From Patescibacteria group bacterium (lineage in GTDB: Bacteria; Patescibacteriota; Patescibacteriia; UBA1558; GWA2-36-10), in NCBI GenBank assembly GCA_041650755.1, contig JBAZKN010000001.1, positions 238,886 through 302,885 on the forward strand: a stretch of DNA of 64,000 nucleotides. Direction: 5' to 3'. The first letter of the stretch is position 1; every line of letters begins with the position of its first letter. A program made the position numbers and the translations under genes. Below the pieces are notes generated by a model, which was not told where the DNA came from, ran no database searches, and was given only the letters and a program-made list of their open reading frames with translations. This document shows positions 6,729 to 47,082 of this stretch, piece after piece.

Positions 6729-6732
6729 ATTA

Positions 6733-19172: not shown

Positions 19173-20255
19173 CTAAAGATGCTCAAAAATTCTCTTGCTC
19201 ACACCGCTGTCCCAAAGGGGGATATTTTTTGTTTTAAAATCAGTGCGATTTAAATGTTCAATCATAACCTCAGCCTGATCTAGTTCTATGGGGAATAATT
19301 TGTTGGAACCAGATTCTATGGTAATTGGCCTCTCGGTATTATCCCGTAAAGTAGCGCAGGGAATACCTAGGTGTGTAGTTTCTTCTTGAATGCCCCCGGA
19401 ATCAGTAATGATGCCCTTGCTTTCAGAAACGAGTTTGATAAATGCAAAATAGCCCAAGGGGTTGATGATTTTTATATTATCCAAATATTTATTGAGGTTA
19501 TATTTCTCAATGGCTGCCTTGGTGCCGGGATGCATGGGGAAAACCACTGGGATTTTTTCGTTGACCTTATTAATAATTGAAAGAATTTTTTCCAAATAAA
19601 AAATATTATCGGTGTTTTCCTGGCGATGGAATGTCAAAACAGCATATTGTTTGGGCGCTAATGAAAGCTGCTCCAAAATTTGACAATCTTTTATCTTGTC
19701 CCAAAATATCTCCAGGCTTTCGATCATTATATTGCCTACATAAAAAATCTTACTCGGTTCAATGCCTTCCAGAAGCAAATTTTCATTACCGGATGGTTCG
19801 GTGGTAAATAATTTTTCTGATAAATGGTCGACTGTGACGCGGTTTATTTCTTCAGGCATGCGGCGGTCATGACTTCTTAGGCCGGCTTCAATATGCACCA
19901 CCGGACAGCTATTTTTGGCAGCTGCCAAAGCACCCGCTAAAGTTGAGTTGACATCACCAAACACAATGCAACCGTCAAAATTGTAGCCCTTGTATACTCT
20001 GGACAAAGCATTGAACATCTTGCCGATTTTTTCTGTGTGAAATTTGCCTTTGATATCCAGATGAATATCGGGAGTAGGAATATTTAATTCCTCAAAAAAC
20101 ACCTTGGACATATTAGGATCAAAATGCTGACCAGTATGAACTATGGTAAACTGGTATTCTGGATGATTTTTGGCCTCATGGAAAAAAGCGGCCGCTTTTA
20201 TAAAATTTGGCCGAGTGCCCAAGACCACTACATAATGCTTATTCTTTGTTATCAT
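19173..20255 (-). CDS. wecB: UDP-N-acetylglucosamine 2-epimerase (non-hydrolysing)
   Basis: Matches the epimerase_2 family: HYVVVLGTRPNFIKAAAF...VHTGQHFD...HIEAGLRS... Confidence 0.85.
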   Translation of the reverse strand: MITKNKHYVVVLGTRPNFIKAAAFFHEAKNHPEYQFTIVHTGQHFDPNMSKVFFEELNIPTPDIHLDIKGKFHTEKIGKMFNALSRVYKGYNFDGCIVFGDVNSTLAGALAAAKNSCPVVHIEAGLRSHDRRMPEEINRVTVDHLSEKLFTTEPSGNENLLLEGIEPSKIFYVGNIMIESLEIFWDKIKDCQILEQLSLAPKQYAVLTFHRQENTDNIFYLEKILSIINKVNEKIPVVFPMHPGTKAAIEKYNLNKYLDNIKIINPLGYFAFIKLVSESKGIITDSGGIQEETTHLGIPCATLRDNTERPITIESGSNKLFPIELDQAEVMIEHLNRTDFKTKNIPLWDSGVSKRIFEHL

Positions 20256-21096
20256 GCGGTTTATTTATTTCTGTTAATAATTGCTCTATACGCTGCGCAT
20301 CCCAGCCCAGGTTGGCAAATTGGGGTTGAGCTAAAGCCAAAAGCAGGGTAGCTTTGGCTGGGCCGGTTAATTTATCGCTTCTGATCATTGTCTCAAGATC
20401 TGCCAAATTAATTTCGGCAAATTGCTTGGAGTCAACTGTTGGCATTTGATTATCAACCTCAGCATACATGGCGATATCATGCAAGGAGTAGTGTTGATCA
20501 TAGATCCGCTCCACACCAACACTGACGAGCTCCGGTATTTCCAAACCCAATTTTCTCCTAAATCTGTCTTTGGCTGTCGCAAATGGATCGGCATTTTCGA
20601 AGTCCGGATTTAGCACCCCGCCCGGCGCATCTATCTTGCCACCCTCTTCTTGAGAGGCTGATGGCCGAACACTCAAATAAAAACAGTTTCTCGATCGATC
20701 ATAGACCACGCCGCAAATTGACAAAGCGCCATATTTTTCACCAAAGGTGGCTGGGTTTTCCTGGCGCAGCTGATGAGCGGCAAAGTAAACAAAATAATGT
20801 AAACGTTCGGCATCGATTACCATTTTGCCATCCTCTGCCGATCTAAAAATTGGGTTACCTAAAAGTACGCCATTGAAAGTTCCGGGTGAGTCAATTTGGA
20901 AATCTCTCGCTTTCTTAATTATTTCCCTCAAATCCTTTAGGTCAGGAAAGGCTGTCCGGACTGATAAATCTTTTTCGGGAAAATGTAAATCAATTTCTCT
21001 ATAAACCTCGCCCAAGGGCGTTTCAAAGCTAATACCCATTTTTGGCGGCTCTGGCGTCTCTTGAGTTTTATCTACTGCCATATATTCTGCTTCCAT
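20239..21096 (-). CDS. Hypothetical protein (285 aa) inside the glycan operon
   Basis: No confident family assignment. There is a weak Nudix-box-like stretch (GGKIDAPGGVLNPDFE...RFRRKLGLE). Confidence 0.4.
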   Translation of the reverse strand: MEAEYMAVDKTQETPEPPKMGISFETPLGEVYREIDLHFPEKDLSVRTAFPDLKDLREIIKKARDFQIDSPGTFNGVLLGNPIFRSAEDGKMVIDAERLHYFVYFAAHQLRQENPATFGEKYGALSICGVVYDRSRNCFYLSVRPSASQEEGGKIDAPGGVLNPDFENADPFATAKDRFRRKLGLEIPELVSVGVERIYDQHYSLHDIAMYAEVDNQMPTVDSKQFAEINLADLETMIRSDKLTGPAKATLLLALAQPQFANLGWDAQRIEQLLTEINKPHDNKE

Positions 21097-21103
21097 AAAT
21101 CCT

Positions 21104-22057
21104 CTATTTAATTTTATAATATTCTCTCATCCAGTCAATAGTCTTTTTTACTCCGTCTTCAAGTTTGATGGTCAGTTTGTGATCCAGGTCTTTGACGGCC
21201 TTGGAAATATCGACTTTTTTGGATTTGGTAGTCAAAATCTCCGTATCCCGATACTCTATCAGTTTTTTATCAGCGCCGGTATAATCCCAAATAATGTTGA
21301 CCAAGGTCTCGATGTCGTGGTATTCCAAGCCACCGATATTATAGACTTCACCGGGTTTGAACTTATCTATAATATTACATAAAGTCCGGCAAGTATCCTC
21401 CAAATAAGTAGATGTCCGATAATGGCCGCGATGCACCACTACCGGCAAACCATGCAAAGCGTGGTAGCAAAATTTGCAATTCACACTGCGGTAAGGATGA
21501 TACCACTCGCCCGGTCCATAAGTATTAAACAATCTGACAACCACTGTCTCTGTTTTGTGCTGGGCCGCTGAGTTTCTGATTTGCATTTCATTCACCCATT
21601 TGCTCATGGCATAATCATTGAGCTGCTTGATTTCAGTCTGGTCCATCACCTCCTCTTTCATCAGCTCTTCATAATCGCCATAAACCTCCGATGAAGAAAA
21701 GTGTATCAATTTAAATTTTAATTTTTCCTGCAAGCGAATAATGTTTTTCGTGCCAATGGCATTGGAATGCCAAACCTGCTCATAATAATCTTCTCCATTC
21801 CAGCGGCCAAATTCAGCGGCTGTATGATAAACAAAATCAAAAGGGCCATATTTAGCAAAAACCCTTTCCAATTGCCTAAAATTACCCACATCGCAACGCG
21901 CATAATAACTTTTGGCTTTGGACATTTCGTGCTCCCAGCCGACTTCTCCCAAGCTATGATACAAATCTATGCCAAAAACATCATGGCCCTTGTCAGCCAA
22001 CATCTTGACTAAATATGAGCCAACCACTCCTTTGCTGCCGGTGACTAAAATTTTCAT
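21104..22057 (-). CDS. NAD-dependent sugar epimerase/dehydratase (extended SDR)
   Basis: MKILVTGSKGVVGSYLV is a Rossmann-type motif, consistent with an extended-SDR sugar enzyme. Confidence 0.8.
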   Translation of the reverse strand: MKILVTGSKGVVGSYLVKMLADKGHDVFGIDLYHSLGEVGWEHEMSKAKSYYARCDVGNFRQLERVFAKYGPFDFVYHTAAEFGRWNGEDYYEQVWHSNAIGTKNIIRLQEKLKFKLIHFSSSEVYGDYEELMKEEVMDQTEIKQLNDYAMSKWVNEMQIRNSAAQHKTETVVVRLFNTYGPGEWYHPYRSVNCKFCYHALHGLPVVVHRGHYRTSTYLEDTCRTLCNIIDKFKPGEVYNIGGLEYHDIETLVNIIWDYTGADKKLIEYRDTEILTTKSKKVDISKAVKDLDHKLTIKLEDGVKKTIDWMREYYKIK

Positions 22058-22094
22058 AATATTATTTTAAAAATTTATTAACTATTTTTTCAAG

Positions 22095-22907
22095 CTATTT
22101 TCTGGTGGCGCTGACAACCAAATGCCTGCCCCAAAAACAATTTCTATCCGAAAAAAATTTCTCCAAATTGATAATGGCTCGTTGGCTAATTTTGATGTGT
22201 AATAAAATCTTCAACAAAAATTCAAACCAGCGCGGCCCATCAATAAAAGATACCGACTTGAATTCTATTATTTTCAAGCTATTGGCTTCCAGCCATTGAC
22301 GCAGCGAATCGCGGCTAAATTCTCGGACATGGGCATCGCCATGCTGGGCCAACTCTTCTTTGGAAAAAACATTGATCGGTTTGAATTTTCTTACCCCCAA
22401 TAAACGCAAAAATCTGCCCCAGACAGTGGCGTCAGCATTGAGATTTGGTACGGTGATCAACAATAAGCCGCTTGGTTTTAATACTCGGAGTAGCTCCCGC
22501 AAAGCCACATCTTTATCAAACACGTGCTCTAATACCTCGGCGCAAATAATTTTATCAAAAGTAGCCTCAGCAAAAGGTATATTTTCTACGTCGCCTTTGG
22601 CAAAGTGCAAATTATGAAAACCATTTTCATTTTTGTACTGATCAGCCATATCAATAAAATTCTGGGCAATATCAATACCATGGCCAGTACCAATCTGCCC
22701 AGCCAGCTGAAACAGCTGCTTACCGGCAGCACAGCCGCAATCCAAAACCACATCACTTTTTTGCGGATGCAAAAATTTGACGATAAAGCATTCGCGCAAA
22801 TAATTGGTCAAACCTATCCTATAAGTGGGTTGAAATTTGTAGCCCAAATACGACGCCTTGCCCTTACCAAAGTCTTCCCACATTTTTTCATAAGACTGCT
22901 GAAGCAT
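22095..22907 (-). CDS. Class I SAM-dependent methyltransferase
   Basis: VLDCGCAAGKQL is motif I; LKPSGLLLITVPN follows it. Confidence 0.8.
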   Translation of the reverse strand: MLQQSYEKMWEDFGKGKASYLGYKFQPTYRIGLTNYLRECFIVKFLHPQKSDVVLDCGCAAGKQLFQLAGQIGTGHGIDIAQNFIDMADQYKNENGFHNLHFAKGDVENIPFAEATFDKIICAEVLEHVFDKDVALRELLRVLKPSGLLLITVPNLNADATVWGRFLRLLGVRKFKPINVFSKEELAQHGDAHVREFSRDSLRQWLEANSLKIIEFKSVSFIDGPRWFEFLLKILLHIKISQRAIINLEKFFSDRNCFWGRHLVVSATRK

Positions 22908-22910
22908 AGT

Positions 22911-24017
22911 TTATTTTAATTTGGCTAAATATTCATTCATCTTTCTACCGATAATTTCCCAGGTCAAATTATTTTTGACAAACTCAATTGCCCTATCGCC
23001 CATGGCCATTCTTTCTTCTTTGCTCATCTTGTATACCTTATATAGACTCTCTTCCAGCTCTTTGACCACATCATCAGTCCCAATCACCAGACAAACATCC
23101 TTGCCCAACAAGAGCTCTTCGACTGGACCAACATTGGTCAAAATATTGACTATGCCGGTAGCCAAATATTCCGGCAATTTGGCCGGATAGGCATATTCAG
23201 TCATCATGATGCCGCTGGGGCGAGCCAAGACCAAGACATCTGATTGATTGATGATATCGTTGACCAAATGATGCTCAATATTATGATGCATGACAGTTTC
23301 TGCCTCCAAATCATTTTCGCGGATCAGTTTTCTGGTCTCTTCTGGATCTTCGCTGGTCACCAGATTGAGCTTAAAAGGAAAAAGTTTTTTCTGTTTAATA
23401 TTTTTGGCCGCTCGGCACAAAAGATCAAGGCCCTGATATGAGCGGGCATTACCCATGTAGCCAATAAACAGATAATCATGGTTTTGATATTCAGCTCTTT
23501 GAAATTCTGCCAAATCCACACCGCCGTATATCACTTCTATATTTTTATTGACATCTTTATAATAATCTTTCAGTTTACCGGACACGACAAACAGCAAATC
23601 ATAAAAACGCAAGAAAAATTTTATCATAATTTTCCTCATTATCATGGTTTTTTTGTCTATATAGCCATGATAGTATGGTTCTTCAAAGTCCAGACCGTGC
23701 AAATCTATGACGATTTTTACCCCCAACAAAAGCTTCAAAATAACCAAGAGCTTGATATTGGTGCCAGTACCACTCATCACAATGCCAATTTTTTTGTCTT
23801 TTATTATTTTTTTGAAGAATAGGAATTTCTTGAAAGGGTTCACTTTCGGAATTTCAAAAAAATTATCAGCAAAATCTTTGTGGCCGGTCTGGGCGCAAAC
23901 CCAAATATTATTGGCTTTTTGGATTTGTAAAATAAATTTATAAATCCGTAAAGGCGTGCCCCGCATAGGATTGTCCAACTTGACGCTGGAAACAAATAAA
24001 ACATTCTTGCGTTCCAT
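22911..24017 (-). CDS. Glycosyltransferase family 4 (GT-B)
   Basis: Two-Rossmann GT-B architecture with a C-terminal GT4-type region. Confidence 0.65.
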   Translation of the reverse strand: MERKNVLFVSSVKLDNPMRGTPLRIYKFILQIQKANNIWVCAQTGHKDFADNFFEIPKVNPFKKFLFFKKIIKDKKIGIVMSGTGTNIKLLVILKLLLGVKIVIDLHGLDFEEPYYHGYIDKKTMIMRKIMIKFFLRFYDLLFVVSGKLKDYYKDVNKNIEVIYGGVDLAEFQRAEYQNHDYLFIGYMGNARSYQGLDLLCRAAKNIKQKKLFPFKLNLVTSEDPEETRKLIRENDLEAETVMHHNIEHHLVNDIINQSDVLVLARPSGIMMTEYAYPAKLPEYLATGIVNILTNVGPVEELLLGKDVCLVIGTDDVVKELEESLYKVYKMSKEERMAMGDRAIEFVKNNLTWEIIGRKMNEYLAKLK

Positions 24018-24022
24018 ACTTT

Positions 24023-25399
24023 TTACATTAATTTCGATTTAATAAACTTAAACGCTTTTTTAAATATTTTGGGATTCAAAAAATAAAATCTGCCAAACTT
24101 AAATCTATTTTTATAATGCCAGCGATAGATTCTGGCTATAGTAGGGTGTTGTTCGACACCCACTCGACCAGCATATTTTTCTAAATTTTCCCAATCAAAA
24201 TCTTTGCCTTCTTGCTCTCTTAGCATCTCATAAAGCTGTGTGCCAAAATAAGGGATAGGCAAAGCCGGCTCAACCATAGTGGTTAAATTATTATCGGCCA
24301 AAAATTTCTCCGTCTCTCTGATAGTCTGTTTATCTTCACCCGGCAGATTGATAATAGAATACAAGCCAATCACTATGCCGTGCCTTTTTAAAATATCAAC
24401 ACACTTCTTGGTCTGTTCCATGGTGGTTTTCTTATCGGCTTTGTCTAGTACTTTCTGCGAACCGCTTTCAAAACCAACATTGATGCGCACGCAACCCGCC
24501 TGTTTCATCTTGATAAGCAATTCCTCATCAAGGTCGCTCACCCTGGCGTTGCATCCCCATTTGATGTCTATTTTCTCCTCAATCAGCAGATCGCAAATTT
24601 TTCTCACTCTAGCCTTATCAATCACGAATTCCCAATCCTGAAAATAAATGCCCTTGACCCCAAAATTATTGACTAAATATTTTATCTCTGCCAGCACGCT
24701 CTCCGGACTACGGGTAATGTAAAACTTATCCATCATTACCTTCAAGCAATAAGTGCAATTAAAGGGACAGCCGCGCGAACTCAAGATGATAGAAAATGGC
24801 TGGGGAATATCGCCGAAAGTGTAGCGATACTTATCCATCGGCAGCATATCATAAGCTGGAATTGGCAAGGCGTCTAAATTTCTGTTGCGTTCAGCCGGTG
24901 GATTATTGATCACCCGGCCGTCTTTGATATAAGAAATGCCCGCAACCCGGCTGACATCACCCTGCTCTGCCAAAGTTTTGACCAAGTCTAATACTATAAG
25001 CTCCGGCTCATTGCGCACCACAAAATTGACTTTGCTCTTTTCCAAAATCCACTCTGGCATGACTGAGCCATGCGCGCCAGTCAAAATAATACACGGGATT
25101 TTGGCAGCTTCAATAGTTTTGACTATATTGCCCACCAAAAGCTTGATATGGGCATGGGACGGCACTTCCCAGCGATCAACCGGCGTAGAAGTTAAAATCA
25201 AAATCTCGGGATTAAACCGCTTAATTTCTTCAATAGTATCTTCTAAGCTAAGATTCAAAACATTGGCATCCAATAATTTCACCTCATGATCGGGCTTGAG
25301 CAAGCTAGCGATATAAGCCAAAGCCAAAGGCTGCCTCTTGCGAGACATTTTAGTCAGCTTTCCTGAAAACAAGAATGGATTTAAAATAAATATCCTCAT
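24023..25399 (-). CDS. B12-binding radical SAM protein (class B rSAM)
   Basis: N-terminal cobalamin-binding Rossmann region, then SSRGCPFNCTYC (CX3CX2C). Confidence 0.8.
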   Translation of the reverse strand: MRIFILNPFLFSGKLTKMSRKRQPLALAYIASLLKPDHEVKLLDANVLNLSLEDTIEEIKRFNPEILILTSTPVDRWEVPSHAHIKLLVGNIVKTIEAAKIPCIILTGAHGSVMPEWILEKSKVNFVVRNEPELIVLDLVKTLAEQGDVSRVAGISYIKDGRVINNPPAERNRNLDALPIPAYDMLPMDKYRYTFGDIPQPFSIILSSRGCPFNCTYCLKVMMDKFYITRSPESVLAEIKYLVNNFGVKGIYFQDWEFVIDKARVRKICDLLIEEKIDIKWGCNARVSDLDEELLIKMKQAGCVRINVGFESGSQKVLDKADKKTTMEQTKKCVDILKRHGIVIGLYSIINLPGEDKQTIRETEKFLADNNLTTMVEPALPIPYFGTQLYEMLREQEGKDFDWENLEKYAGRVGVEQHPTIARIYRWHYKNRFKFGRFYFLNPKIFKKAFKFIKSKLM

Positions 25400-25404
25400 A
25401 AAAA

Positions 25405-27196: not shown

Positions 27197-27197
27197 A

Positions 27198-28382: not shown

Positions 28383-28402
28383 ATCGACAGACCAAATGCC
28401 AC

Positions 28403-29437
28403 TCAGTCAAATAATCGCACTATTTTTTTGACCAATTGATCTAAGCGGTGATTATTTACGACATATTGCCGTAAAGCTAGGCCAAGAGCTTTTCTGTCTA
28501 TTTCCTCTAGCCGCATGACTTTCCCCCTAGCTGCTTGAGGGCTAGAGAGTATCAGCTCTGGGGCTACATTTTGTAAAATCACTCGCCCCGAATCATTACT
28601 AGTAAGAACTAGCGTGCCACAGCTCATGGCTTCCAAAATAGTTTTATCTAAACTACCGGTCACACTAAAATTCAAAAAAATATCTGCCCACTGATAAAGC
28701 GCCGGGGTCTCACAATTGACTATGGAACCCAAAAAAATCACTGCATCCTGCAAGCCTAAGTTATCCACCTGGGCCCGCAGATCAGCCAAATATTTATTAC
28801 CTACCACTAGACTGGGTGCACCGGCTATTTTTAAAATTACTTCTTTCCCCTGACGCCTTAAATCGGCCACCAAATCAATCATTAAATGAATATTTTTGCT
28901 AGCCGAGATCCGGCCAACAGTAAGTAAACGCAAACCTTTGTGTATTTCTTTTTCTCGATAAGCAAAAACATCAGTATCAATACCCTGATGCAAAACAACC
29001 GCCTTCTTACTGGACAGACGAAAGCCCTGACTAGTAGAAGTAACTATTTTATCTACCAAAGCATTGAGTAGGGCTACTTTAAAATTCACTGCCCCGTGAG
29101 CATACCAGGCAATAATTGGTTTCTTAAACAAGCGAGCCCAAGGAGCCAGCATGATGCCATATTCAGGATTCTGATGGGTGAAAACACCGTCAACTTTTGG
29201 TACTAAACTAAAGGCTAATTTTTGCAAACGCCAAAATTCGAGCCAACGATTTTTACCTTTCTCCTTGCCCAAAGAGTGAACGGCCGCATTTTCCGGCAGG
29301 CCGGCTATTTCCCCCTTTTCTAGACAAATAACATCCAAATGATCTACATTGCCAGCAAATTTCTTTACCCAATTATAAGTAAAGCCGGCTAGGCCATCAT
29401 TTTTATCAACTTTTCTGGTGAACATCAATAGACGCAT
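28403..29437 (-). CDS. Glycosyltransferase family 4
   Basis: TVGRISASKNIHLMIDL...EAMSCGTLVLTSN. Confidence 0.7.
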   Translation of the reverse strand: MRLLMFTRKVDKNDGLAGFTYNWVKKFAGNVDHLDVICLEKGEIAGLPENAAVHSLGKEKGKNRWLEFWRLQKLAFSLVPKVDGVFTHQNPEYGIMLAPWARLFKKPIIAWYAHGAVNFKVALLNALVDKIVTSTSQGFRLSSKKAVVLHQGIDTDVFAYREKEIHKGLRLLTVGRISASKNIHLMIDLVADLRRQGKEVILKIAGAPSLVVGNKYLADLRAQVDNLGLQDAVIFLGSIVNCETPALYQWADIFLNFSVTGSLDKTILEAMSCGTLVLTSNDSGRVILQNVAPELILSSPQAARGKVMRLEEIDRKALGLALRQYVVNNHRLDQLVKKIVRLFD

Positions 29438-29439
29438 CT

Positions 29440-30570
29440 TTATAATTTATTATTAATAATGTCAGACCAAAATTCGGCAATTTTTTCTGTATTATCACTA
29501 AATAATTCGCGCACCAATTTTTGGCCATTGAGACCCATGGCCTTACTTTCAGACGCATGCTCAAATAAGTAGATAATTTTTTCTGCCAAAGCTGACGGGT
29601 CGCCAATCGGCACCAAATAACCATTGTAGCCATCCCGCACAATACTTACCGCGCCGGTAGTAGCGGTCGACACTACTGGTTTAGCACAGGCATTGGCTTC
29701 AACCAAAACCTTGCCAAAACTTTCGTTGGTTGAAGACATGACAAATACTGAACACTGGTTGTACTCTGCCGGCAGATCATCGTGATCAACTGCACCCACT
29801 ATATCAATAAAAGGACTATCCTGAACTATTTTTTTTAAATTATTGTACTCTGGCCCCTGACCGATAATCTTTAAATGCAAGTCGGGATATCGCTGAAAAA
29901 TAATTTTAGCAGCCGCAATCAAAGTAGGAAAATCCTTAGCAGCTACCAGTCGCCCCACTGACAAAATATCATGCGGTTTAAAATCAACTTCTGCCAAATT
30001 ATTAAATTTTTCCAAATCTACCGGCGTGGGAATTACGCGAATAATCTTGGTTGGCAAACCAAACTTGATCAGCTTCTCCTTGATGCCTTGACTCATGACC
30101 CGCAGAGCATCTGCCTTGGTCACCGTCCAATGACCCAAGATAAGTAAAAATCTATTTACCCAGGCTTCCTGGCGCCATTGTTCGTTGGCAAAAAAATCTC
30201 CATGAAAATGAATCAATAACTTGCAAGAAAATTTCCTTTTCAGCCAAATACCCACCCAAGCGGTCAAAAACGGATCCTGGGTAAGTACCAGATCGATCTG
30301 ATTTTTTTGACAAATATCCTTGGCTATCAGCCAGGCGTCCCACAAAAAACTGATCGGATTACGAGAATTGGTCGGAAAAATAAAGACATTGTCTGATAAT
30401 TTTTTATTGCCCAGGCGCGAACTTTTTTTAGAATAAGTCACAGAAAATAAATTGGCCACATAAGCACCATAAGCGATATTCCTTTTTTGGGCATCACCAT
30501 AATCGCCGCTATCACTGGCTAGGGTTGGATCCCAAGAAATTGTCAAAATATTATAGGGTAATGATGCCAT
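29440..30570 (-). CDS. Glycosyltransferase family 4
   Basis: LSVGRLVAAKDFPTLIAAAKII...EANACAKPVVST. Confidence 0.75.
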   Translation of the reverse strand: MASLPYNILTISWDPTLASDSGDYGDAQKRNIAYGAYVANLFSVTYSKKSSRLGNKKLSDNVFIFPTNSRNPISFLWDAWLIAKDICQKNQIDLVLTQDPFLTAWVGIWLKRKFSCKLLIHFHGDFFANEQWRQEAWVNRFLLILGHWTVTKADALRVMSQGIKEKLIKFGLPTKIIRVIPTPVDLEKFNNLAEVDFKPHDILSVGRLVAAKDFPTLIAAAKIIFQRYPDLHLKIIGQGPEYNNLKKIVQDSPFIDIVGAVDHDDLPAEYNQCSVFVMSSTNESFGKVLVEANACAKPVVSTATTGAVSIVRDGYNGYLVPIGDPSALAEKIIYLFEHASESKAMGLNGQKLVRELFSDNTEKIAEFWSDIINNKL

Positions 30571-30573
30571 ATA

Positions 30574-32013
30574 CTATGTTCCTCTGACTAAATTATAAGT
30601 TCGGCGCAAAAGTTTCCCCAAAAAGCCGCGCTGTTCTATGGCTAGACCAGATAAATATTCCGTCAAATAAATGTCAGCACTAAAAGCAAAGAAGCGATGT
30701 CGGATGCGCCACTCAAACCATTTTTTGATTGGCCCCAAGCGCCAATTCAAAAACTTGAAATATTCTCTGATCCGCCAAACCTTTTGAGCATCAACCCAGG
30801 GTGAATGAAAATTTTTGCGGAAGCGATCAATCTTGCCCCAATCCTCGGTTCTGGACGGCGGCACAAAACCATTTTGAATAGCAAAATCATACATGCGTGA
30901 TCCGGGATAAGGCAAATAAGCACCCAGGGTAAAAACTGCCCGGGGGTGTAATTTATAAATCTGATACATTAAATCAATAGTTGCTTCAAACTCTGCCTTA
31001 GTTTCGGTGGGCAGACCGACAATCGCTGAATAAGAGGCCGGCAAATCATGATGATGGATAATCTTGACGGTAGATATAATCTTCTCGGTGGTAATTTTTT
31101 TATCGATCATTTCCAGAAGACGATTGCTGCCTGATTCAACGCCGATCAACATGTCAAAGACTTTATAGTCTTTGAGTTTCTGCGCCACCTCGTCATTTAT
31201 AGAATCTATCCTGATCTCAAGGTGTGAGGGCAATTGAATCCTTTCCAAAATCTCAAAGGCTCTGTTTTTGTTAACAAAAAAATTATCATCATAAAATTTG
31301 ACAGCGTCTATCTGATAATTCTCTTTTAGCCACTTGATGTCCTCTACCACCGCGTCAATTGACCAGGCTCGCCATTTGTTTTTATTAAATAAATTGTTAT
31401 AGCAAAAAGCGCAATTAAAGGGGCAGCCGCGGGAAGTCTTGTAAGCAATCACCCGCTTATATTTGCCCAAAGGAAAAATAAATTTTTCTATATCCTGAAG
31501 TAAGGCGAAATCCAGACGATACTGATCCAAATTTTCTATAAAAGGCCGCCAAGGATTAACTATTGTCTGGCCGGCTTGTTTGTAGCCGACGCCCAAGACG
31601 CCAAGCGGTGCCAGGTCGGCTTTTATCTTCTCGGTCAATTCAATAATTGTAATCTCCCCCTCAGAGATCACCACATAATCAATATAGTCTTCACTTAAAC
31701 ACTGCTCTGGCAACAATGACGGATGGATACCGCCCCAAACTATCGGGATATTGCTCTGTGCTTTTATTTTTTTTGATAATTCGGCACTATGTTCGGTCTG
31801 TATGCCAGTCATGACTGACAAGCCCACATACAAAGGTCGTTCTTTGACTATACGATCTGCTGTTTGAGCTATTTCTTTTTCATTGATATTATAAAGCTCC
31901 ACTTCCCAGCCAGCTTGCTTTAGAGTACTGCCCACACACAAGATGCCCAGCGGCAAAATTTTCTCTGAGTGATCTTCGGTATAATTTATTTGTACCAAAA
32001 TAATCTTGGACAT
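30574..32013 (-). CDS. B12-binding radical SAM protein (class B rSAM)
   Basis: N-terminal B12-binding domain, then TSRGCPFNCAFC. Confidence 0.8.
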   Translation of the reverse strand: MSKIILVQINYTEDHSEKILPLGILCVGSTLKQAGWEVELYNINEKEIAQTADRIVKERPLYVGLSVMTGIQTEHSAELSKKIKAQSNIPIVWGGIHPSLLPEQCLSEDYIDYVVISEGEITIIELTEKIKADLAPLGVLGVGYKQAGQTIVNPWRPFIENLDQYRLDFALLQDIEKFIFPLGKYKRVIAYKTSRGCPFNCAFCYNNLFNKNKWRAWSIDAVVEDIKWLKENYQIDAVKFYDDNFFVNKNRAFEILERIQLPSHLEIRIDSINDEVAQKLKDYKVFDMLIGVESGSNRLLEMIDKKITTEKIISTVKIIHHHDLPASYSAIVGLPTETKAEFEATIDLMYQIYKLHPRAVFTLGAYLPYPGSRMYDFAIQNGFVPPSRTEDWGKIDRFRKNFHSPWVDAQKVWRIREYFKFLNWRLGPIKKWFEWRIRHRFFAFSADIYLTEYLSGLAIEQRGFLGKLLRRTYNLVRGT

Positions 32014-32015
32014 AA

Positions 32016-33461
32016 TTAATGCACAACAAATCTTTTGGCCAGCTTAAACTCAATCGGCCAGGAAAAAAATTTTAGTTTCCAGCGCAATTTGCATAATAAA
32101 ACAAAAATTAATTTAACCAACTTTTGCGCTCTGACGCTGGAACCCATGGCATTTTTTATGCTATGAGCGCCAAAGCGAACATAGGCTTCCATTGACTCAA
32201 CAAAATCCTTATCTTTGACCCAGGGAAAATTCTGTACTGTCAAATAGCTCAATTCATTGTGCACCAGCTCTGCCCAGGCATTGACTGATTGTGGCGCTTG
32301 CCAACCAGCCGCCAGACACTCCTCATACAGCTCCGAGCCGGGATACGGCCTAAAGGCTTGCGGCCCTAAAATCTGCACATCTTCACCCAATTTGATCAAA
32401 TCATCAATCAGCCCCAGAGTCATCATCATGTCTGCTCTGCTCTCCCCCGGCAGACCGATCATAAATGAATACTGCGGTATGATGCCGTGCTTTAGACAAG
32501 ACTTGGCTGAATAAATTATTTCTTCCGGAGTCACGTCTTTTTTTATTTTGGATAAAATGCTCGGACTACCGGACTCAGCGCCAAATGATAGCAAATAACA
32601 GCCTGATTTTTTGAGCTTGGCCATAAAATCATCATCAATCATGCCGGGCCTGATGTAGTTGGCTCGCACCGTAGTTTCCCAAGGTATAATCAAGTTTTCT
32701 TTGATCATGCCCTCGATAATTGCCCGCGCCCGCTTGATGTCGACAAAAAAATTCTCATCCCAAAAACGCAATTTTTTATCCTTAAAATAAGGTTGGCTTT
32801 TTATAATCCGCAAATCTTCAAGAACCTGCTCGGCCGTGCGAAAACGCCAGCGGTTTTTCAAAATAGCATTGATACAAAAAGTACAGCGATGCGGACAACC
32901 ACGCGAAGTCAATGAAGGGATCAAATATAAATTATGTAAAATTTCTTCTGGAACCAAATCCCACTTAAAGAGAGGCATCTTGGCCGGATCATGCAAGGTG
33001 CGCAAAGGATTAATTTTTACCTCACCAGCTTGCTTGTAGGCAATGCCATCAATGCCGGACCATTCTTTGCCTTGCACTATATCTAAGGCTGTCAGCTCGC
33101 CTTCGCCAAAACAAGCCAGATCCACCAGCGGATGGGCTATTGTTTGTTCAGTAAAAAAAGTCGGATGCGTGCCACCCCAGATAATAACTGCTTTGGGATT
33201 TATTTGCCTAATCAGCTGGCTGGCCTCAATGGCATGGGCCAGCTGCGTAGTCATAACCGACAAACCAATATAATCATAGTGTGGGGCTTTTTGCTTGATG
33301 AGCTCCAAATAATTTTTTTGTCTGACGCCGTCCAATATTTCCACTTTAATCCCCCGACTATCAAGATAAGTGGCAATACTCAAAAGACCAACCGAAACGG
33401 AGCTATCGTAATTCTCTTTGGCTATATTAAATGGCGGATTGATGAGTAATATTTTAGACAT
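32016..33461 (-). CDS. B12-binding radical SAM protein (class B rSAM)
   Basis: N-terminal B12-binding domain, then TSRGCPHRCTFC. Confidence 0.8.
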   Translation of the reverse strand: MSKILLINPPFNIAKENYDSSVSVGLLSIATYLDSRGIKVEILDGVRQKNYLELIKQKAPHYDYIGLSVMTTQLAHAIEASQLIRQINPKAVIIWGGTHPTFFTEQTIAHPLVDLACFGEGELTALDIVQGKEWSGIDGIAYKQAGEVKINPLRTLHDPAKMPLFKWDLVPEEILHNLYLIPSLTSRGCPHRCTFCINAILKNRWRFRTAEQVLEDLRIIKSQPYFKDKKLRFWDENFFVDIKRARAIIEGMIKENLIIPWETTVRANYIRPGMIDDDFMAKLKKSGCYLLSFGAESGSPSILSKIKKDVTPEEIIYSAKSCLKHGIIPQYSFMIGLPGESRADMMMTLGLIDDLIKLGEDVQILGPQAFRPYPGSELYEECLAAGWQAPQSVNAWAELVHNELSYLTVQNFPWVKDKDFVESMEAYVRFGAHSIKNAMGSSVRAQKLVKLIFVLLCKLRWKLKFFSWPIEFKLAKRFVVH

Positions 33462-34617
33462 TTTTTATCTGACTAATCAATTCTACGGTTTGTTTGATGG
33501 TGCTGTCCCAATTAAAATCAGCTAATTTCGCTTTAGCTTGCATAGTAAACTTTTTAGCTAAATCATGGGTGCTTAAAATTTTTATAGTGGCTGTCTGCAA
33601 AGCCGGCAAATCATTGTAAGTCACCAGCCAGCCACTCACGCCTGACTCAATCACTTCTGGATTGCCGCCAACATTAGTGCTGATAATAGGCACTTCCGCG
33701 CGCATGGCTTCCAATAAGGTATGCGACAAGCCTTCATAATTTGTATTTAAAATAAATAAATCGGCTGCCCGAAAATAATTAATAATCTGATGATGGTCAA
33801 TAACGCCCAAAAATTCAACCTGGTCAGCTATTTTTAAACTTTGGGCCAGCTCTTTTAAATTTTCCAATTCAGCGCCAGCCCCCAAAATCAATAGCCTAGT
33901 CGGTCCAAGCTGTTTGATGATCTGGGGTAAAATTTTTATGAGCCCTGACATCCCTTTCCAGGGCACCAGTCTAGCTGCCGAGATAATGATTTTTTCTGAA
34001 GCAGGATACTGCTGCCTGATCCTACCTGCTGCCTGCTCATCTAAAGATTCCTCACTGATGAAATCAACCGAATTATAAATGACTTTTATTTTTCCATCAC
34101 TCACGCCAATTTTTTTAGCTAGCTGGGCAATAAAATTGCTGACAGCGATAACTTTTTCAGCAGCTAATAATATTTTTTGCCGGCGCAGTTTCAGCTTTTC
34201 AATTTTCTCATCATATTGCCTGTCCTGAAAATCCATAATATAATCATAGGTCCAACCCATGGCTGTGGCTGTCTCCCAAGCGCTATCCCCGGCAAACCTG
34301 ACAATATATTTTTTGCCGAAAAATTTATTCAACAACCAGGCAAAATAGCCGACGCTATAAGTATCGGTTGCATATACCAAGTCAGCTTGACTTGCCAAAA
34401 AAAACATTTTGGCCAAATAATGCCAGCGGCTATAAAATCTATTCTTGGCAATCCGATAAACGAATCCTTTTTCATCGGCAGAATTTTTCACCGCAGAATA
34501 AGTAATGATCTTAACGCCAAAACCGTGCTCTTGCAAGGATTTGGCCAGAGCTCGCAATATGGTAGCTGGACCACCGATATCAGGCGGATATAAGCCAGTG
34601 GCGATTAATATTTTCAT
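33454..34617 (-). CDS. Glycosyltransferase family 4
   Basis: ISAARLVPWKGMSGLIKIL...EAMRAEVPIISTNVGG. Confidence 0.75.
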   Translation of the reverse strand: MKILIATGLYPPDIGGPATILRALAKSLQEHGFGVKIITYSAVKNSADEKGFVYRIAKNRFYSRWHYLAKMFFLASQADLVYATDTYSVGYFAWLLNKFFGKKYIVRFAGDSAWETATAMGWTYDYIMDFQDRQYDEKIEKLKLRRQKILLAAEKVIAVSNFIAQLAKKIGVSDGKIKVIYNSVDFISEESLDEQAAGRIRQQYPASEKIIISAARLVPWKGMSGLIKILPQIIKQLGPTRLLILGAGAELENLKELAQSLKIADQVEFLGVIDHHQIINYFRAADLFILNTNYEGLSHTLLEAMRAEVPIISTNVGGNPEVIESGVSGWLVTYNDLPALQTATIKILSTHDLAKKFTMQAKAKLADFNWDSTIKQTVELISQIKNV

Positions 34618-34631
34618 CTTTAGGATAACAA

Positions 34632-35351
34632 TTATTTTTTCTCAAACACGCAGACTAAGGCTTGACCCCAGTTTTTTAAAAAATCCAGCCGGCACAGCTT
34701 GTCATCAATGGTATGAATAAAGCGGTTACTAAACCAAAACCTGGGCAAACCTAAATAATGCAAGGGTGGCCAGAGAGTGGAAGCTCTGGATTTTTTCAGC
34801 TGCCAACCATTGGCTGACATGAACCCCAGCCATTGTTTGAGATTATAATCATATTGATGCTGATCAGGATCCCAGCCTTCCTTGATAACAGTGCGTGAAT
34901 GACGTCGCAAAATTTTACGACCAACAAATTTAAAAAAATTTTCCCATTTGTCGTGCATGGCCGGAAAAGTGATCAAAATACGGCCACCAGCCTTGGTCAG
35001 ACGATGCATTTCTTTTAAAACCAAATTGGGATGGATGACATGCTCAATAATATCGATGGCAATGCATTTATCAAATTGCTCGTCTAATGGTATAGACTCC
35101 ACGTCAGCCTGGACAGTCACAAAGTTTGCAATATTATTTTCTTTCATCAGGGCTCTGGCTGTAGCTAGCCTCTCTTCATTGATATCAACGCCGATCATTT
35201 TTTTAAATTTACCCTTATAAACTAGGGCTTGGACGCCATCGCCGCAACCAACATTTAAAACTGAATCTTCTTCTGTCAGGGGAAAAAATTTAGGATAAAT
35301 AATGCCGGAAATTAACTTACCTTTTTTAAATTTTATTGCCATTGACCCCAT
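34632..35351 (-). CDS. Class I SAM-dependent methyltransferase (first gene of the long minus-strand glycan operon)
   Basis: VLNVGCGDGVQAL is motif I; TKAGGRILITFP follows it. Confidence 0.75.
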   Translation of the reverse strand: MGSMAIKFKKGKLISGIIYPKFFPLTEEDSVLNVGCGDGVQALVYKGKFKKMIGVDINEERLATARALMKENNIANFVTVQADVESIPLDEQFDKCIAIDIIEHVIHPNLVLKEMHRLTKAGGRILITFPAMHDKWENFFKFVGRKILRRHSRTVIKEGWDPDQHQYDYNLKQWLGFMSANGWQLKKSRASTLWPPLHYLGLPRFWFSNRFIHTIDDKLCRLDFLKNWGQALVCVFEKK

Positions 35352-35414: not shown

Positions 35415-35443
35415 TTGCATTAAGTCCATAAATTCTATAAAAT
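35415..35443 (+). promoter_or_regulatory. Putative promoter TTGCAT-N17-TAAAAT for the plus-strand GT4 gene
   Basis: TTGCAT at 35415-35420 and TAAAAT at 35438-35443. It overlaps the divergent minus-strand -10. Confidence 0.3.
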
Positions 35444-38425: not shown

Positions 38426-38449
38426 TGCTTGATAAACAAGCTGATATAT

Positions 38450-47077: not shown

Positions 47078-47082
47078 ATATT

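What the first reader, a model, noticed from the sequence alone, without database searches (positions are those of the whole stretch)
19173..35351. Sixteen-gene glycan operon interleaving three B12-binding radical SAM enzymes, three SAM methyltransferases and seven GT4 transferases
A single minus-strand transcription unit of about 16 kb, with gaps of 40 nt or less, encodes these genes in order of transcription: MT, GT4, rSAM, rSAM, GT4, GT4, GT4, MT, GT4, rSAM, GT4, MT, SDR epimerase, hypothetical, WecB. Class B (cobalamin-dependent) radical SAM enzymes typically perform chemically difficult C-methylations or other radical alkylations (Fom3, GenK, TsrM and CysS types). Three paralogs sit among the transferases of an envelope polysaccharide/glycoconjugate pathway. 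This points to heavily C-methylated or otherwise radical-modified sugars, which is chemistry not described for surface glycans of small-genome bacteria. The observed 1:1 count of rSAM to classical MT genes is also striking.
Basis: partly seen in the sequence, partly recalled or inferred. Interest (0 to 1): 0.75.

Follow-up and report, generated by a model that had tools for sequence, protein, structure and literature searches.

The report
Radical-SAM-studded glycan operon in Patescibacteria
A tiny-genome (Patescibacteria) bacterium carries a tightly packed 15-gene sugar-chain assembly operon in which three vitamin-B12-type radical enzymes sit next to specific sugar transferases; this pairing recurs across many related genomes and points to an uncharacterised radical modification of a surface glycan.

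Summary
Window 19173-35351 (minus strand) holds 15 genes, not 16, with gaps of -20 to +37 nt: 3 class I methyltransferases, 6 GT4 transferases (a 7th is divergent, outside the range), 3 B12-binding radical SAM proteins, an SDR, a WecB and a 'hypothetical' that folds like a NUDT22-type Nudix nucleotide-sugar hydrolase. A phosphoglycosyltransferase, Wzx, three Wzy_C proteins and a PMT_2 transferase flank it. All three rSAMs pass Pfam PF02310 and PF04055 and keep CxxxCxxC. They are 24-30% identical to one another and reach no curated NCBIfam family; the best partial matches are HpnJ and BchE. The link to the glycan genes is strong. GT4a-rS1 and GT4e-(MT)-rS3 adjacencies recur in many Patescibacterial loci, and the rSAMs are the best-conserved proteins there (62-74% against 35-52% for their GT partners). 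The chemistry is unresolved. C-methylation is plausible, but the closest families and fold (HpnJ, BchE, AprD4) do not methylate, and two active-site markers give opposite signals. The 1:1 rSAM:MT count is not conserved. I found no description in the searchable literature. Verdict: new variant of a known kind, moderately high interest.

The parts
35442..35470 (-). Best sigma-70-like promoter match (TTGATT-17-TATAAT with TG), in the 149-nt divergent intergenic region upstream of the first gene
   Evidence: This is a consensus match only, not shown to function.
34632..35351 (-). MT1, class I SAM methyltransferase (239 aa)
   Evidence: Pfam Methyltransf_11/31/25 at E about 1e-18. No NCBIfam cut-off reached.
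33454..34617 (-). GT4a, GT4 glycosyltransferase. Its stop overlaps the rS1 start by 8 nt. Conserved upstream partner of rS1.
   Evidence: Pfam PF00534 133.7 bits. A GT4a-like gene lies directly upstream of the rS1 ortholog in L037, L122, L123, L124 and L125.
32016..33461 (-). rS1, B12-binding radical SAM protein (481 aa). C189xxxC193xxC196, GLSVM70 and WGGTHP motifs.
   Evidence: PF04055 74 bits and PF02310 65.7 bits. More than 120 cluster representatives at 69-76% identity, all those named being Patescibacteria. Best PDB sequence matches are MgmA/QCMT 9ccb at 2e-17 and OxsB at 1e-14. Best NCBIfam is HpnJ, 156 against a cut-off of 578.
30574..32013 (-). rS2, B12-binding radical SAM protein (479 aa). 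C197xxxC201xxC204, GLSVM68 and WGGIHP motifs.
   Evidence: PF04055 92.4 bits and PF02310 76 bits. 30% identical to rS1. Best NCBIfam is BchE, 132 against 481. PDB sequence matches: AprD4 4e-15, QCMT, TokK 1e-8. The order rS(1/2)-GT4b-GT4c recurs in L086, L093, L100 and L102.
29440..30570 (-). GT4b glycosyltransferase
   Evidence: PF00534 123.5 bits. Orthologs at 38-62% identity in syntenic loci.
28403..29437 (-). GT4c glycosyltransferase (only the C-terminal GT1 domain is detected)
   Evidence: PF00534 69.9 bits. Syntenic orthologs at 35-55% identity.
27198..28382 (-). GT4d glycosyltransferase
   Evidence: PF00534 117.5 bits and PF13439 70 bits.
26546..27196 (-). MT2, small class I methyltransferase (216 aa) with a hydrophobic C-terminal tail. 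Recurrent companion of the GT4e-rS3 pair.
   Evidence: PF08241 38.7 bits. A methyltransferase of about 190-220 aa lies beside or between GT4e and rS3 orthologs in L001, L005, L086, L090, L094, L098, L104 and L106.
25405..26565 (-). GT4e glycosyltransferase (TTG start). Conserved upstream partner of rS3.
   Evidence: PF00534 86.9 bits. A GT4e-like gene lies upstream of the rS3 ortholog in 19 of 29 loci with enough flank (a few near-duplicate contigs still counted), and in every locus with an ortholog of at least 58% identity and enough flank.
24023..25399 (-). rS3, radical SAM protein (458 aa) with a divergent B12-type N-terminal domain. C211xxxC215xxC218. A conserved T70-S-T-P-x-D-R-W77-E-x-P80 loop replaces the GLSVM motif.
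   Evidence: PF04055 92.4 bits; PF02310 38.2 bits against a cut-off of 32.1. HpnJ 195 and BchE 191 bits, both below cut-off. AF2 model pLDDT 90. Best TM-scores to AprD4 (0.74/0.75); best Foldseek E-value to TsrM. Residue conservation.
22911..24017 (-). GT4f glycosyltransferase
   Evidence: PF00534 45.2 bits and PF13439 40.5 bits. 75% identical ortholog in the same position in L086.
22095..22907 (-). MT3, class I SAM methyltransferase (270 aa)
   Evidence: PF13847 93 bits.
21104..22057 (-). SDR-family NAD-dependent nucleotide-sugar epimerase/dehydratase
   Evidence: PF01370 137.8 bits. No NCBIfam equivalog reached. 75% identical ortholog in L125.
20239..21096 (-). 'Hypothetical' protein: a divergent Nudix-fold protein resembling NUDT22, a probable nucleotide-sugar diphosphatase
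   Evidence: No Pfam or NCBIfam hit even at E<=10. Family of 17 cluster representatives. AF2 pLDDT 89. Foldseek best hit is human NUDT22 at E 1e-10 and TM 0.60 over the full length, then GDP-mannose hydrolase YffH. Also adjacent to WecB in L125.
19173..20255 (-). WecB, non-hydrolysing UDP-GlcNAc 2-epimerase
   Evidence: PF02350 312 bits. TIGR00236 282.5 bits, above its cut-off of 210.
35501..36697 (+).
   Evidence: PF00534 106.5 bits.
16551..17918 (+). Initiating polyprenyl-phosphate glycosylphosphotransferase (Bac_transf)
   Evidence: PF02397 232 bits. TIGR03025 381 bits, above its cut-off of 295.5.
17918..19168 (+). Wzx-type flippase (Polysacc_synt), convergent with WecB
   Evidence: PF01943 57 bits.
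12119..16475 (-). Two tandem Wzy_C (O-antigen ligase/polymerase family) membrane proteins of 726 and 727 aa
   Evidence: PF04932 81.9 and 72.8 bits.
36707..40783 (-). PMT_2 (GT-C type) transferase at 36707-38425 and a third Wzy_C protein at 38450-40783
   Evidence: PF13231 89 bits; PF04932 70.1 bits.

Best explanation
This is a chromosomal Wzx/Wzy_C-type locus of a Patescibacterium that assembles a lipid-linked oligosaccharide. A Bac_transf phosphoglycosyltransferase starts the chain on a polyprenyl phosphate. Six or seven GT4 enzymes extend it at the cytoplasmic face. SDR, a NUDT22-like Nudix protein and WecB supply or edit UDP-sugars (UDP-ManNAc at least). Wzx flips the product, and the Wzy_C and PMT_2 membrane proteins polymerise it or attach it to an acceptor.

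Radical tailoring modules are embedded in the assembly line: GT4a-rS1, rS2-GT4b-GT4c, and MT2-GT4e-rS3. Each soluble [4Fe-4S]/SAM enzyme with a B12-type Rossmann domain acts on the sugar handled by its neighbouring transferase. The substrate could be the residue just added to the lipid-linked intermediate or the transferase's nucleotide-sugar donor.

The single most likely chemistry is as follows. A 5'-deoxyadenosyl radical abstracts a hydrogen from an unactivated sugar carbon, and methylcobalamin then transfers a methyl group to it (GenK/GenD1-like C-methylation). The three class I methyltransferases add O- or N-methyl groups.

Shown: gene content, domains, motifs, conserved synteny and strong purifying selection on the rSAMs. 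Inferred: co-transcription, substrate, cobalamin use and the methyl-transfer outcome.

I put about 0.8 on 'the rSAMs tailor this glycan' and about 0.45 on the full statement including C-methylation.
For: - Domains and motifs.
- Complete pathway context (phosphoglycosyltransferase, Wzx, Wzy_C x3, PMT_2, WecB above equivalog cut-off).
- Tight spacing, overlaps and a single strong upstream promoter-like site.
- None of the three rSAMs has a predicted membrane segment, so they should act before flipping.
- Conserved neighbours: GT4e-like upstream of rS3 orthologs in 19 of 29 loci with enough flank, and in all loci of at least 58% identity with enough flank. GT4a-like upstream of rS1 orthologs in 5 of 5 loci. 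In L123 the GT4-rS1 pair is the only + strand gene pair, lying between minus-strand genes. L086 repeats the order rS2-GT4b-GT4c-MT2-GT4e-rS3-GT4f.
- The rSAMs are the most conserved proteins of the locus: rS1 70-72% and rS3 62-74%, against 35-52% for the partner GTs.
- Fold of rS3 matches class B enzymes (TsrM, OxsB, CysS, MgmA, TokK) and the sugar-acting AprD4.
- Most characterised B12-rSAMs are C-methylases, including carbohydrate-acting ones in gentamicin biosynthesis (review PMC12931638).
- The residue aligned with the lower-axial position (OxsB N186, TsrM R69) is a strictly conserved Met in rS1 (120 of 121) and in rS2. It is hydrophobic, as in radical methylases.
Against: - No biochemical data exist for any member.
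- No curated methylase family cut-off is reached. The top partial matches are HpnJ and BchE, which are non-methylating.
- The best whole-chain structural neighbour of rS3 is AprD4. By my recollection AprD4 has a B12-like domain but does not use cobalamin, so a PF02310 hit shows the fold and not the cofactor.
- rS3 lacks the GLSVM and GGxHP motifs and barely passes PF02310.
- The residue two positions after the third cluster Cys (TokK W215, TsrM E236) is Asn, Asn and Lys. It is polar, unlike TokK and Mmp10.
- From general knowledge, Patescibacteria usually cannot make cobalamin. No cobalamin riboswitch or transport gene was seen in the window.
- One 44%-identical relative (L003) sits among pilus and redox genes with no GT4 nearby.
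- Three ordinary methyltransferases already cover methylation.
Confidence: 0.45

Rival explanations
1. Same locus and same GT-rSAM pairing, but the radical enzymes do not methylate. They would carry out other radical chemistry on sugars. Options are ring contraction or carbocycle formation (as proposed for HpnJ on the glucosamine of a hopanoid glycolipid, and shown for OxsB on a nucleotide's deoxyribose), 1,2-diol dehydration leading to deoxygenation (AprD4-like, possibly without cobalamin, at least for rS3), epimerisation, oxidation or C-C coupling. All methyl groups would then come from the three class I methyltransferases.
For: The highest NCBIfam scores are to HpnJ (rS1 156, rS3 195) and BchE (rS2 132, rS3 191), over nearly the full length for rS3. 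AprD4 is the best PDB sequence match for rS2 and rS3 and has the best TM-scores for the rS3 model, 0.74/0.75. OxsB is among the top matches for rS1. The residue at C+2 after the cluster motif is polar (Asn, Asn, Lys) as in TsrM, and OxsB lacks this stacked residue. rS3 has a non-canonical, weakly scoring B12 domain. Three dedicated methyltransferases are present.
Against: All of these matches are far below the family cut-offs: 195 against 578 for HpnJ, 191 against 481 for BchE, 95 against 500 for AprD4. rS1 and rS2 have the hydrophobic lower-axial Met typical of radical methylases. rS1's best PDB sequence match is the methylase MgmA/QCMT. The characterised class is dominated by methylases. The HpnJ reaction itself rests on genetics only, by my recollection.
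Confidence: 0.35
2. The rSAMs are co-located with the glycan genes but act on something else. Candidates are the polyprenyl carrier, a membrane lipid, or a protein or peptide acceptor of the glycan such as a pilin or S-layer protein. The GT neighbours would then reflect shared regulation rather than a shared substrate.
For: A 44%-identical relative lies among type IV pilus and thiol-redox genes with no GT4 (L003/L004). Relatives at about 30% identity in Bathyarchaeia, Chloroflexota and others often form arrays of 2-7 B12-rSAM paralogs with no GT4 detected by my screen. In L122 another B12-rSAM paralog sits with UbiA, DUF6580 and an FAD oxidoreductase. Several partial NCBIfam matches are to lipid-modifying enzymes (ladderane lipid rSAM, HpnR).
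Against: Adjacency to orthologous GT4 genes holds over 36-74% sequence identity, often with overlapping stop and start codons. A GT4-rS1 gene pair stands alone on its strand in L123. The phmmer screen could not detect GT2 or other glycan genes, so 'no GT' in distant loci is weak evidence. No peptide precursor, SPASM domain or lipid-synthesis gene is present in the window's operon.
Confidence: 0.1

Closest known systems
GenK / GenD1 (gentamicin) and related cobalamin-dependent radical SAM C-methyltransferases acting on sugars
   Same: N-terminal B12-type Rossmann domain plus a CxxxCxxC radical SAM core. They act on sugar carbons within a pathway that also contains glycosyltransferases and ordinary methyltransferases. 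rS1 and rS2 have a hydrophobic residue at the lower-axial position.
   Different: Those enzymes tailor secondary-metabolite pseudo-oligosaccharides in actinomycetes. Here the setting is a primary Wzx/Wzy_C surface-glycan locus of a reduced-genome bacterium. No curated methylase model is matched, and I could not compare sequences with GenK or GenD1 directly. Methyl transfer here is untested.
HpnJ, with the glycosyltransferase HpnI, in hopanoid cyclitol-ether synthesis (TIGR03471)
   Same: Highest-scoring curated family for rS1 and rS3. By my recollection, a glycosyltransferase first puts a hexosamine on a lipid and the B12-type rSAM then rearranges that sugar. That is the same GT-then-rSAM logic as the conserved pairs here.
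   Different: Scores of 119-195 bits against a cut-off of 577.6. No hopanoid genes are present. The partner here is a GT4 in an oligosaccharide assembly line. HpnJ chemistry is inferred from mutants only.
AprD4 (apramycin 3'-deoxygenation; PDB 6fd2)
   Same: Best PDB sequence match for rS2 and rS3, and the best TM-scores for the rS3 model (0.74/0.75) at the same chain length. It acts on a sugar of a pseudodisaccharide.
   Different: The NCBIfam AprD4 model scores 95 against 500 and covers only the radical SAM core. By my recollection AprD4 does not bind cobalamin and works with a separate reductase (AprD3). No obvious equivalent partner is paired with rS3.
Structurally defined class I B12-rSAMs: OxsB, TsrM, TokK, CysS, MgmA/QCMT
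   Same: Same two-domain architecture and fold, with Foldseek E-values of 1e-14 to 1e-22. Same motifs.
   Different: 14-22% sequence identity. These proteins are shorter (458-481 aa) and lack the extra N- or C-terminal domains of OxsB, TokK and CysS. Substrates differ: nucleotide, tryptophan, carbapenem, polyketide-type and protein.
Wzx/Wzy-dependent O-antigen, EPS or protein O-glycosylation loci
   Same: Initiating phosphoglycosyltransferase, GT4 series, Wzx, Wzy_C-family proteins and nucleotide-sugar genes.
   Different: Three Wzy_C paralogs of about 730-780 aa and a GT-C PMT_2 enzyme. No chain-length regulator was seen in the window. Multiple B12-type rSAMs are interleaved, and the 2026 review of these enzymes mentions neither polysaccharides nor glycans.

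Membership tests
Radical SAM superfamily | CxxxCxxC cluster motif and PF04055 above the gathering score | tested here: met
   rS1 C189/193/196, rS2 C197/201/204, rS3 C211/215/218. The motif is invariant in 121 and 119 family members. PF04055 scores 74, 92.4 and 92.4 bits against a cut-off of 29.5.
Class B (B12-binding domain) radical SAM | N-terminal Rossmann B12-binding domain (PF02310) preceding the radical SAM core | tested here: met
   65.7, 76.0 and 38.2 bits against a cut-off of 32.1. The rS3 model superposes on TsrM, OxsB, CysS, MgmA and TokK. rS3 is marginal and lacks the GLSVM and GGxHP motifs.
Class B (B12-binding domain) radical SAM | Actually binds and uses cobalamin | not testable with these tools
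   By my recollection AprD4 shows the fold without the cofactor. No riboswitch or corrinoid transporter was found in the window.
B12-rSAM radical C-methyltransferases (TokK/Mmp10/QCMT/GenK type) | Match to a curated methylase family (PhpK, KedN5, HpnR, TsrM, MgmA, RiPP C-MT models) | tested here: not met
   All scores are 25-118 bits against cut-offs of 282-700.
B12-rSAM radical C-methyltransferases (TokK/Mmp10/QCMT/GenK type) | Hydrophobic residue under the corrin (TokK W76 position) and a hydrophobic residue between the corrin and the cluster (TokK W215 position), per review PMC12931638 | tested here: inconclusive
   Lower-axial equivalent: Met70 in rS1 and Met68 in rS2 (hydrophobic); Thr72 or possibly Trp77 in rS3. 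Position C+2: Asn198, Asn206 and Lys220 (polar). The rule rests on seven structures.
HpnJ (TIGR03471) | Score at or above 577.6 bits, and a hopanoid (hpn) gene context | tested here: not met
   156, 119 and 195 bits. No hpn or squalene-hopene cyclase genes among the annotated ORFs.
BchE (TIGR02026) | Score at or above 481 bits, and a bacteriochlorophyll context | tested here: not met
   91, 132 and 191 bits. No tetrapyrrole genes in the window.
AprD4 family (NF033070) | Score at or above 500 bits | tested here: not met
   35, 70 and 95 bits, covering the radical SAM core only. The structural resemblance is nonetheless the closest by TM-score.
Wzx/Wzy-dependent glycan assembly locus | Initiating polyprenyl-P glycosylphosphotransferase, Wzx flippase, Wzy_C-family polymerase or ligase, and serial glycosyltransferases | tested here: met
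   TIGR03025 381 bits against 295.5; PF01943 57 bits; PF04932 three times at 70-82 bits; PF00534 in seven GT4s. Whether the Wzy_C proteins polymerise or ligate is not tested. No chain-length regulator was found.
Nudix hydrolases (for ORF 20239-21096) | Nudix fold, and a Nudix box or sequence-family match | tested here: inconclusive
   The fold matches NUDT22 over the full length (E 1e-10, TM 0.60) and YffH. There is no Pfam or NCBIfam hit at E<=10, and I did not verify a canonical Nudix box.

The most novel reading that the evidence does not exclude
Patescibacteria, and apparently some DPANN archaea, build their surface glycan with dedicated glycosyltransferase-radical SAM modules. These would install carbon-level modifications (C-methyl or chain-extended sugars, carbocycles or deoxygenated residues) on lipid-linked sugars. 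That would be a class of envelope-glycan chemistry not yet described for any primary surface polymer. It would depend on corrinoid scavenged from hosts or neighbours, linking the cell surface of episymbionts to community B12 supply.
Probability: 0.4. Interest if true: 0.8.

Novelty: new variant of a known kind. Interest (0 to 1): 0.6.

Why it matters
More than half of radical SAM classes have no validated function (review PMC12931638). The B12-dependent group is known almost entirely from antibiotic, cofactor and protein-modification pathways. Here, two uncurated subfamilies are fixed next to particular GT4 transferases in the main glycan locus of many Patescibacteria, and they are conserved more strongly than anything else in that locus.

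This gives the enzymes a concrete, testable substrate hypothesis: the sugar handled by the neighbouring transferase. It also suggests that the cell surface of these episymbiotic, reduced-genome organisms carries unusual, costly sugar modifications. The cost is Fe-S, SAM and possibly scavenged B12.

If confirmed, it would add a new reaction context for class B radical SAM enzymes. It would also give a handle on the surface chemistry that mediates attachment of candidate phyla radiation (CPR) bacteria to their hosts.

Tried and rejected
- **Curated family assignment.** NCBIfam gave no equivalog for any rSAM, methyltransferase or GT4. Only WecB and the phosphoglycosyltransferase passed.
- **Exact look-up of rS3.** It failed because the deposited gene call starts 9 codons later.
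- **Genome-contig scan with the rS3 alignment.** It returned mostly relatives at about 30% identity from many phyla. That was useful for breadth but not for orthologs. The metagenome scan with the single protein gave the orthologous loci.
- **Literature.** Ten searches combined radical SAM, cobalamin or B12-binding, and class B with Patescibacteria, CPR, Parcubacteria, polysaccharide, O-antigen and glycosyltransferase. None found a paper describing such loci. The one Parcubacteria hit was irrelevant. The library lacks most subscription journals, so this is not proof of absence.
- **Cobalamin riboswitch or other RNA.** None found at Rfam gathering thresholds. No tRNA genes.
- **AFDB fold search.** Not available.
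- **The '1:1 rSAM:MT' idea.** Rejected, because counts in related loci vary. L001 has 3 B12-rSAMs plus a SPASM rSAM with 2 methyltransferases. L089 has 5 rSAM-like ORFs with only two weak methyltransferase hits. L124 has 2 rSAMs with at least 4 methyltransferases.
- **Horizontal-transfer island.** Rejected. GC content is 0.38-0.42, as in the flanks. The window also carries the ribosomal-protein, SecY and Adk cluster.
- **TIGR04157 'glyco_rSAM_CFB' hit for GT4a.** At 90 bits against a cut-off of 400 it is too weak to mean anything.

Full report
**1. What is in the sequence**

Between 35351 and 19173 the minus strand carries 15 consecutive ORFs. Their spacing runs from -20 to +37 nt, and four stop/start pairs overlap: GT4a/rS1 by 8 nt, MT2/GT4e by 20 nt, Nudix/WecB by 17 nt, and the near-abutting remainder.

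Pfam assigns them, in order of transcription:

| Gene | Coordinates | Assignment |
|---|---|---|
| MT1 | 34632-35351 | class I methyltransferase |
| GT4a | 33454-34617 | GT4 transferase |
| rS1 | 32016-33461 | B12-binding radical SAM |
| rS2 | 30574-32013 | B12-binding radical SAM |
| GT4b | 29440-30570 | GT4 transferase |
| GT4c | 28403-29437 | GT4 transferase |
| GT4d | 27198-28382 | GT4 transferase |
| MT2 | 26546-27196 | class I methyltransferase |
| GT4e | 25405-26565 | GT4 transferase |
| rS3 | 24023-25399 | B12-binding radical SAM |
| GT4f | 22911-24017 | GT4 transferase |
| MT3 | 22095-22907 | class I methyltransferase |
| SDR | 21104-22057 | NAD-dependent epimerase/dehydratase |
| unnamed | 20239-21096 | no family hit |
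| WecB | 19173-20255 | UDP-GlcNAc 2-epimerase |

The title counts are off by one: 15 genes, and six GT4s in the operon. The seventh GT4 is at 35501-36697 on the + strand, divergent from MT1.

All three rSAMs pass both PF02310 (65.7, 76.0 and 38.2 bits; cut-off 32.1) and PF04055. They carry CxxxCxxC and are only 24-30% identical to one another. They are old paralogs, not recent duplicates.

**2. Context**

The operon sits inside a complete glycan-assembly neighbourhood:
- a Bac_transf polyprenyl-phosphate glycosylphosphotransferase (16551-17918, TIGR03025 381 against 295.5);
- a Wzx flippase (17918-19168);
- three large Wzy_C proteins (12119-14299, 14292-16475, 38450-40783);
- a GT-C PMT_2 enzyme (36707-38425).

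WecB passes its equivalog cut-off (282.5 against 210). Further out lie type IV pilus genes, CheA and MCP, an ECF sigma factor and the ribosomal-protein, SecY, Adk and Map cluster. GC content is uniform. This is core chromosome, not an island.

The identical rS1 and Nudix-like proteins are deposited as Patescibacteria group bacterium proteins on a 405 kb contig.

Co-transcription is inferred from spacing. The best promoter-like site on the minus strand is just upstream of MT1 (35470-35442). Terminator-like sites are not in excess. A weaker promoter-like site fills the 37-nt gap before the SDR gene.

**3. Is the rSAM-glycan association more than chance?**

Yes. I fetched loci around homologs and annotated their ORFs by phmmer and BLASTP with the window's proteins.
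- rS3 orthologs (36-74% identity) have a GT4e-like gene immediately upstream, sometimes with a small methyltransferase in between. This holds in 19 of 29 loci with enough flank (a few near-duplicate contigs remain in that count), and in every locus of at least 58% identity with enough flank.
- rS1 orthologs (70-72%) have a GT4a-like gene directly upstream in all five loci examined: L037, L122, L123, L124 and L125. In L123 this pair is the only + strand gene pair, lying between minus-strand genes.
- L086 repeats the window's order rS2-GT4b-GT4c-MT2-GT4e-rS3-GT4f. L093, L100 and L102 keep rS(1/2)-GT4b-GT4c.
- Across 42 non-duplicate Patescibacteria-type loci, 23 of 66 B12-rSAM ORFs have a GT4 directly upstream, 9 have a methyltransferase and 5 have another rSAM. 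My screen could not see GT2 or other families, so the rest are not evidence against.

The rSAMs are the best-conserved proteins in these loci: rS1 70-72% and rS3 62-74%, against 35-52% for their GT partners. The rS1 family alone has more than 120 cluster representatives at 69-76% identity. Those that carry names include Buchanan-, Magasanik-, Kuenen- and Portnoybacteria.

The 1:1 rSAM:MT ratio is not conserved.

**4. What are the radical enzymes?**

No curated NCBIfam model is reached. The best partial matches are HpnJ (rS1 156, rS3 195; cut-off 578) and BchE (rS2 132, rS3 191; cut-off 481). Weaker matches follow to PhpK, ladderane-lipid, ApyD, BzaD, MgmA, HpnR and AprD4 models.

By sequence against the PDB, rS1 is closest to MgmA/QCMT (9ccb, identified via PMC12931638) and OxsB. 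rS2 and rS3 are closest to AprD4.

An AlphaFold model of rS3 (pLDDT 90) matches TsrM, AprD4, OxsB, CysS, MgmA and TokK. The best TM-scores are to AprD4, at 0.74/0.75.

So the proteins are class-B-fold radical SAM enzymes of uncurated subfamilies.

I tried two structure-derived markers from the 2026 review, mapped through the printed alignments:
- **Residue under the corrin** (OxsB N186, TsrM R69; TokK W76 plays the same role per the review but was not aligned here). It corresponds to the last residue of the GLSVx motif. It is Met70 in rS1 (120 of 121 family members) and Met68 in rS2. This is hydrophobic, as in radical methylases.
- **Residue two positions after the third cluster Cys** (TokK W215, TsrM E236). 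It is Asn198, Asn206 and Lys220 (113 of 119). This is polar, unlike TokK or Mmp10.

rS3 replaces GLSVM with a conserved T-S-T-P-x-D-R-W-E-x-P loop, lacks GGxHP, and scores marginally on PF02310. Its cobalamin use is the least certain of the three. The markers therefore disagree, and the chemistry cannot be called from sequence.

**5. Most likely mechanism and rivals**

*Best-supported reading.* The locus is a lipid-linked oligosaccharide assembly line. Soluble rSAMs (no membrane segments) act at the cytoplasmic stage on the sugar handled by the adjacent transferase. I put about 0.8 on this general statement.

For the chemistry, I favour C-methylation (about 0.45 for the full statement). Most characterised B12-rSAMs, including carbohydrate-acting ones, are C-methylases. 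rS1 and rS2 also have the hydrophobic lower-axial residue.

*Main rival (0.35).* The enzymes perform non-methylating sugar radical chemistry: HpnJ-like ring contraction, AprD4-like dehydration, or similar. The closest families and fold and the polar C+2 residue support this.

*Minor rival (0.1).* The substrate is not the glycan. This is suggested by a 44% relative in a non-glycan context and by rSAM-only arrays among relatives at about 30% identity in Bathyarchaeia, Chloroflexota, Omnitrophota and DPANN. The conserved, often overlapping GT-rSAM pairs argue against it.

**6. Comparison with known systems and novelty**

The parts are known kinds: a Wzx/Wzy_C locus, GT4s, and class B rSAMs that can act on sugars in aminoglycoside pathways. 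The new element is the arrangement. Several B12-type rSAM subfamilies are fixed beside particular GT4s in the primary glycan locus of reduced-genome bacteria, and the subfamilies are absent from curated libraries.

Ten literature searches found no description. The 2026 review of B12-rSAMs contains neither 'polysaccharide' nor 'glycan'. The library is incomplete, so prior mention elsewhere cannot be excluded. I recall BchE-like 'Fe-S oxidoreductase' genes in some O-antigen loci such as Leptospira rfb, but I did not verify this.

I rate it a new variant of a known kind, interest 0.6.

**7. Side result**

The 'hypothetical' gene (20239-21096) belongs to a family of 17 cluster representatives. It models confidently (pLDDT 89) as a Nudix-fold protein. 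It is most like human NUDT22 (by my recollection a UDP-glucose/galactose hydrolase) and E. coli GDP-mannose hydrolase. It is again next to WecB in L125. It is probably a nucleotide-sugar diphosphatase that edits the donor pool.

Noticed in passing
window 20239-21096 (-); L125 10001-10828: The operon's 'hypothetical' protein has no Pfam or NCBIfam hit even at E<=10. It nevertheless folds (pLDDT 89) like human NUDT22 and E. coli GDP-mannose hydrolase. It is a narrow, unannotated Nudix-like family of 17 cluster representatives, and it is conserved next to WecB.
   Followed up: yes
window 12119-16475 (-), 38450-40783 (-), 36707-38425 (-), 632-8418 (-): Three paralogous Wzy_C proteins of about 730-780 aa and a PMT_2 GT-C enzyme flank the operon. 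A type IV pilus cluster with N_methyl pilin-like proteins lies nearby. From my own knowledge, Wzy_C is also the domain of PglL/PilO protein O-oligosaccharyltransferases, so the product may be attached to pilins or other surface proteins rather than polymerised.
   Followed up: no
L122-L125, L037, L086, L089-L104 compared with window 24023-33461: The radical SAM proteins are the most conserved genes of these glycan loci: rS1 70-72% and rS3 62-74% identity, against 35-52% for their GT4 partners and about 35% for the methyltransferases.
   Followed up: yes
L010-L085 (genome-contig scan): Relatives at about 30% identity in Bathyarchaeia, Chloroflexota/Anaerolineae, Omnitrophota, Aminicenantes and DPANN archaea commonly occur as arrays of 2-7 B12-rSAM paralogs within 20 kb. 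Several DPANN loci (L054, L080, L021, L051) also hold GT4 and methyltransferase genes.
   Followed up: partly
L007, L008, L034, L037: These contigs are labelled 'uncultured Gammaproteobacteria' yet encode proteins up to 63-71% identical to the Patescibacterial rS1 and rS3, in the same synteny. The bins are probably misassigned.
   Followed up: no
L122 3558-7785: In a Magasanikbacteria genome, a block of UbiA prenyltransferase, DUF6580, another B12-rSAM paralog and an FAD amine-oxidase-like enzyme lies just upstream of the GT4-rS1 pair. This hints at radical modification of a prenyl-linked substrate.
   Followed up: no
L001 17382-18350; L122 15206-16982: Related loci also contain a SPASM-domain radical SAM protein. 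In L122 it sits next to a polysaccharide deacetylase. L124 and L125 have an Asn-synthase-like amidotransferase. None of these is in the window's operon.
   Followed up: no
window 51493-52551 (-): A second polyprenyl-phosphate sugar-phosphate transferase, of the MraY/WecA family (PF00953), lies next to a DUF192 gene near the ribosomal-protein cluster.
   Followed up: no
window 41580-45344 (-): A 1254-aa ORF with no Pfam match lies downstream of a DUF5667 protein and an ECF-type sigma factor (45749-47634). A 1272-aa gene with no Pfam hit on record (it runs off the locus end) lies near a Wzy_C gene in L123. It may be a surface protein.
   Followed up: no
window 22064-22093 (-): A promoter-like match (TTGAAA-18-TAAAAT) lies in the operon's largest gap (37 nt) before the SDR gene. 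SDR-Nudix-WecB may therefore have its own start.
   Followed up: no
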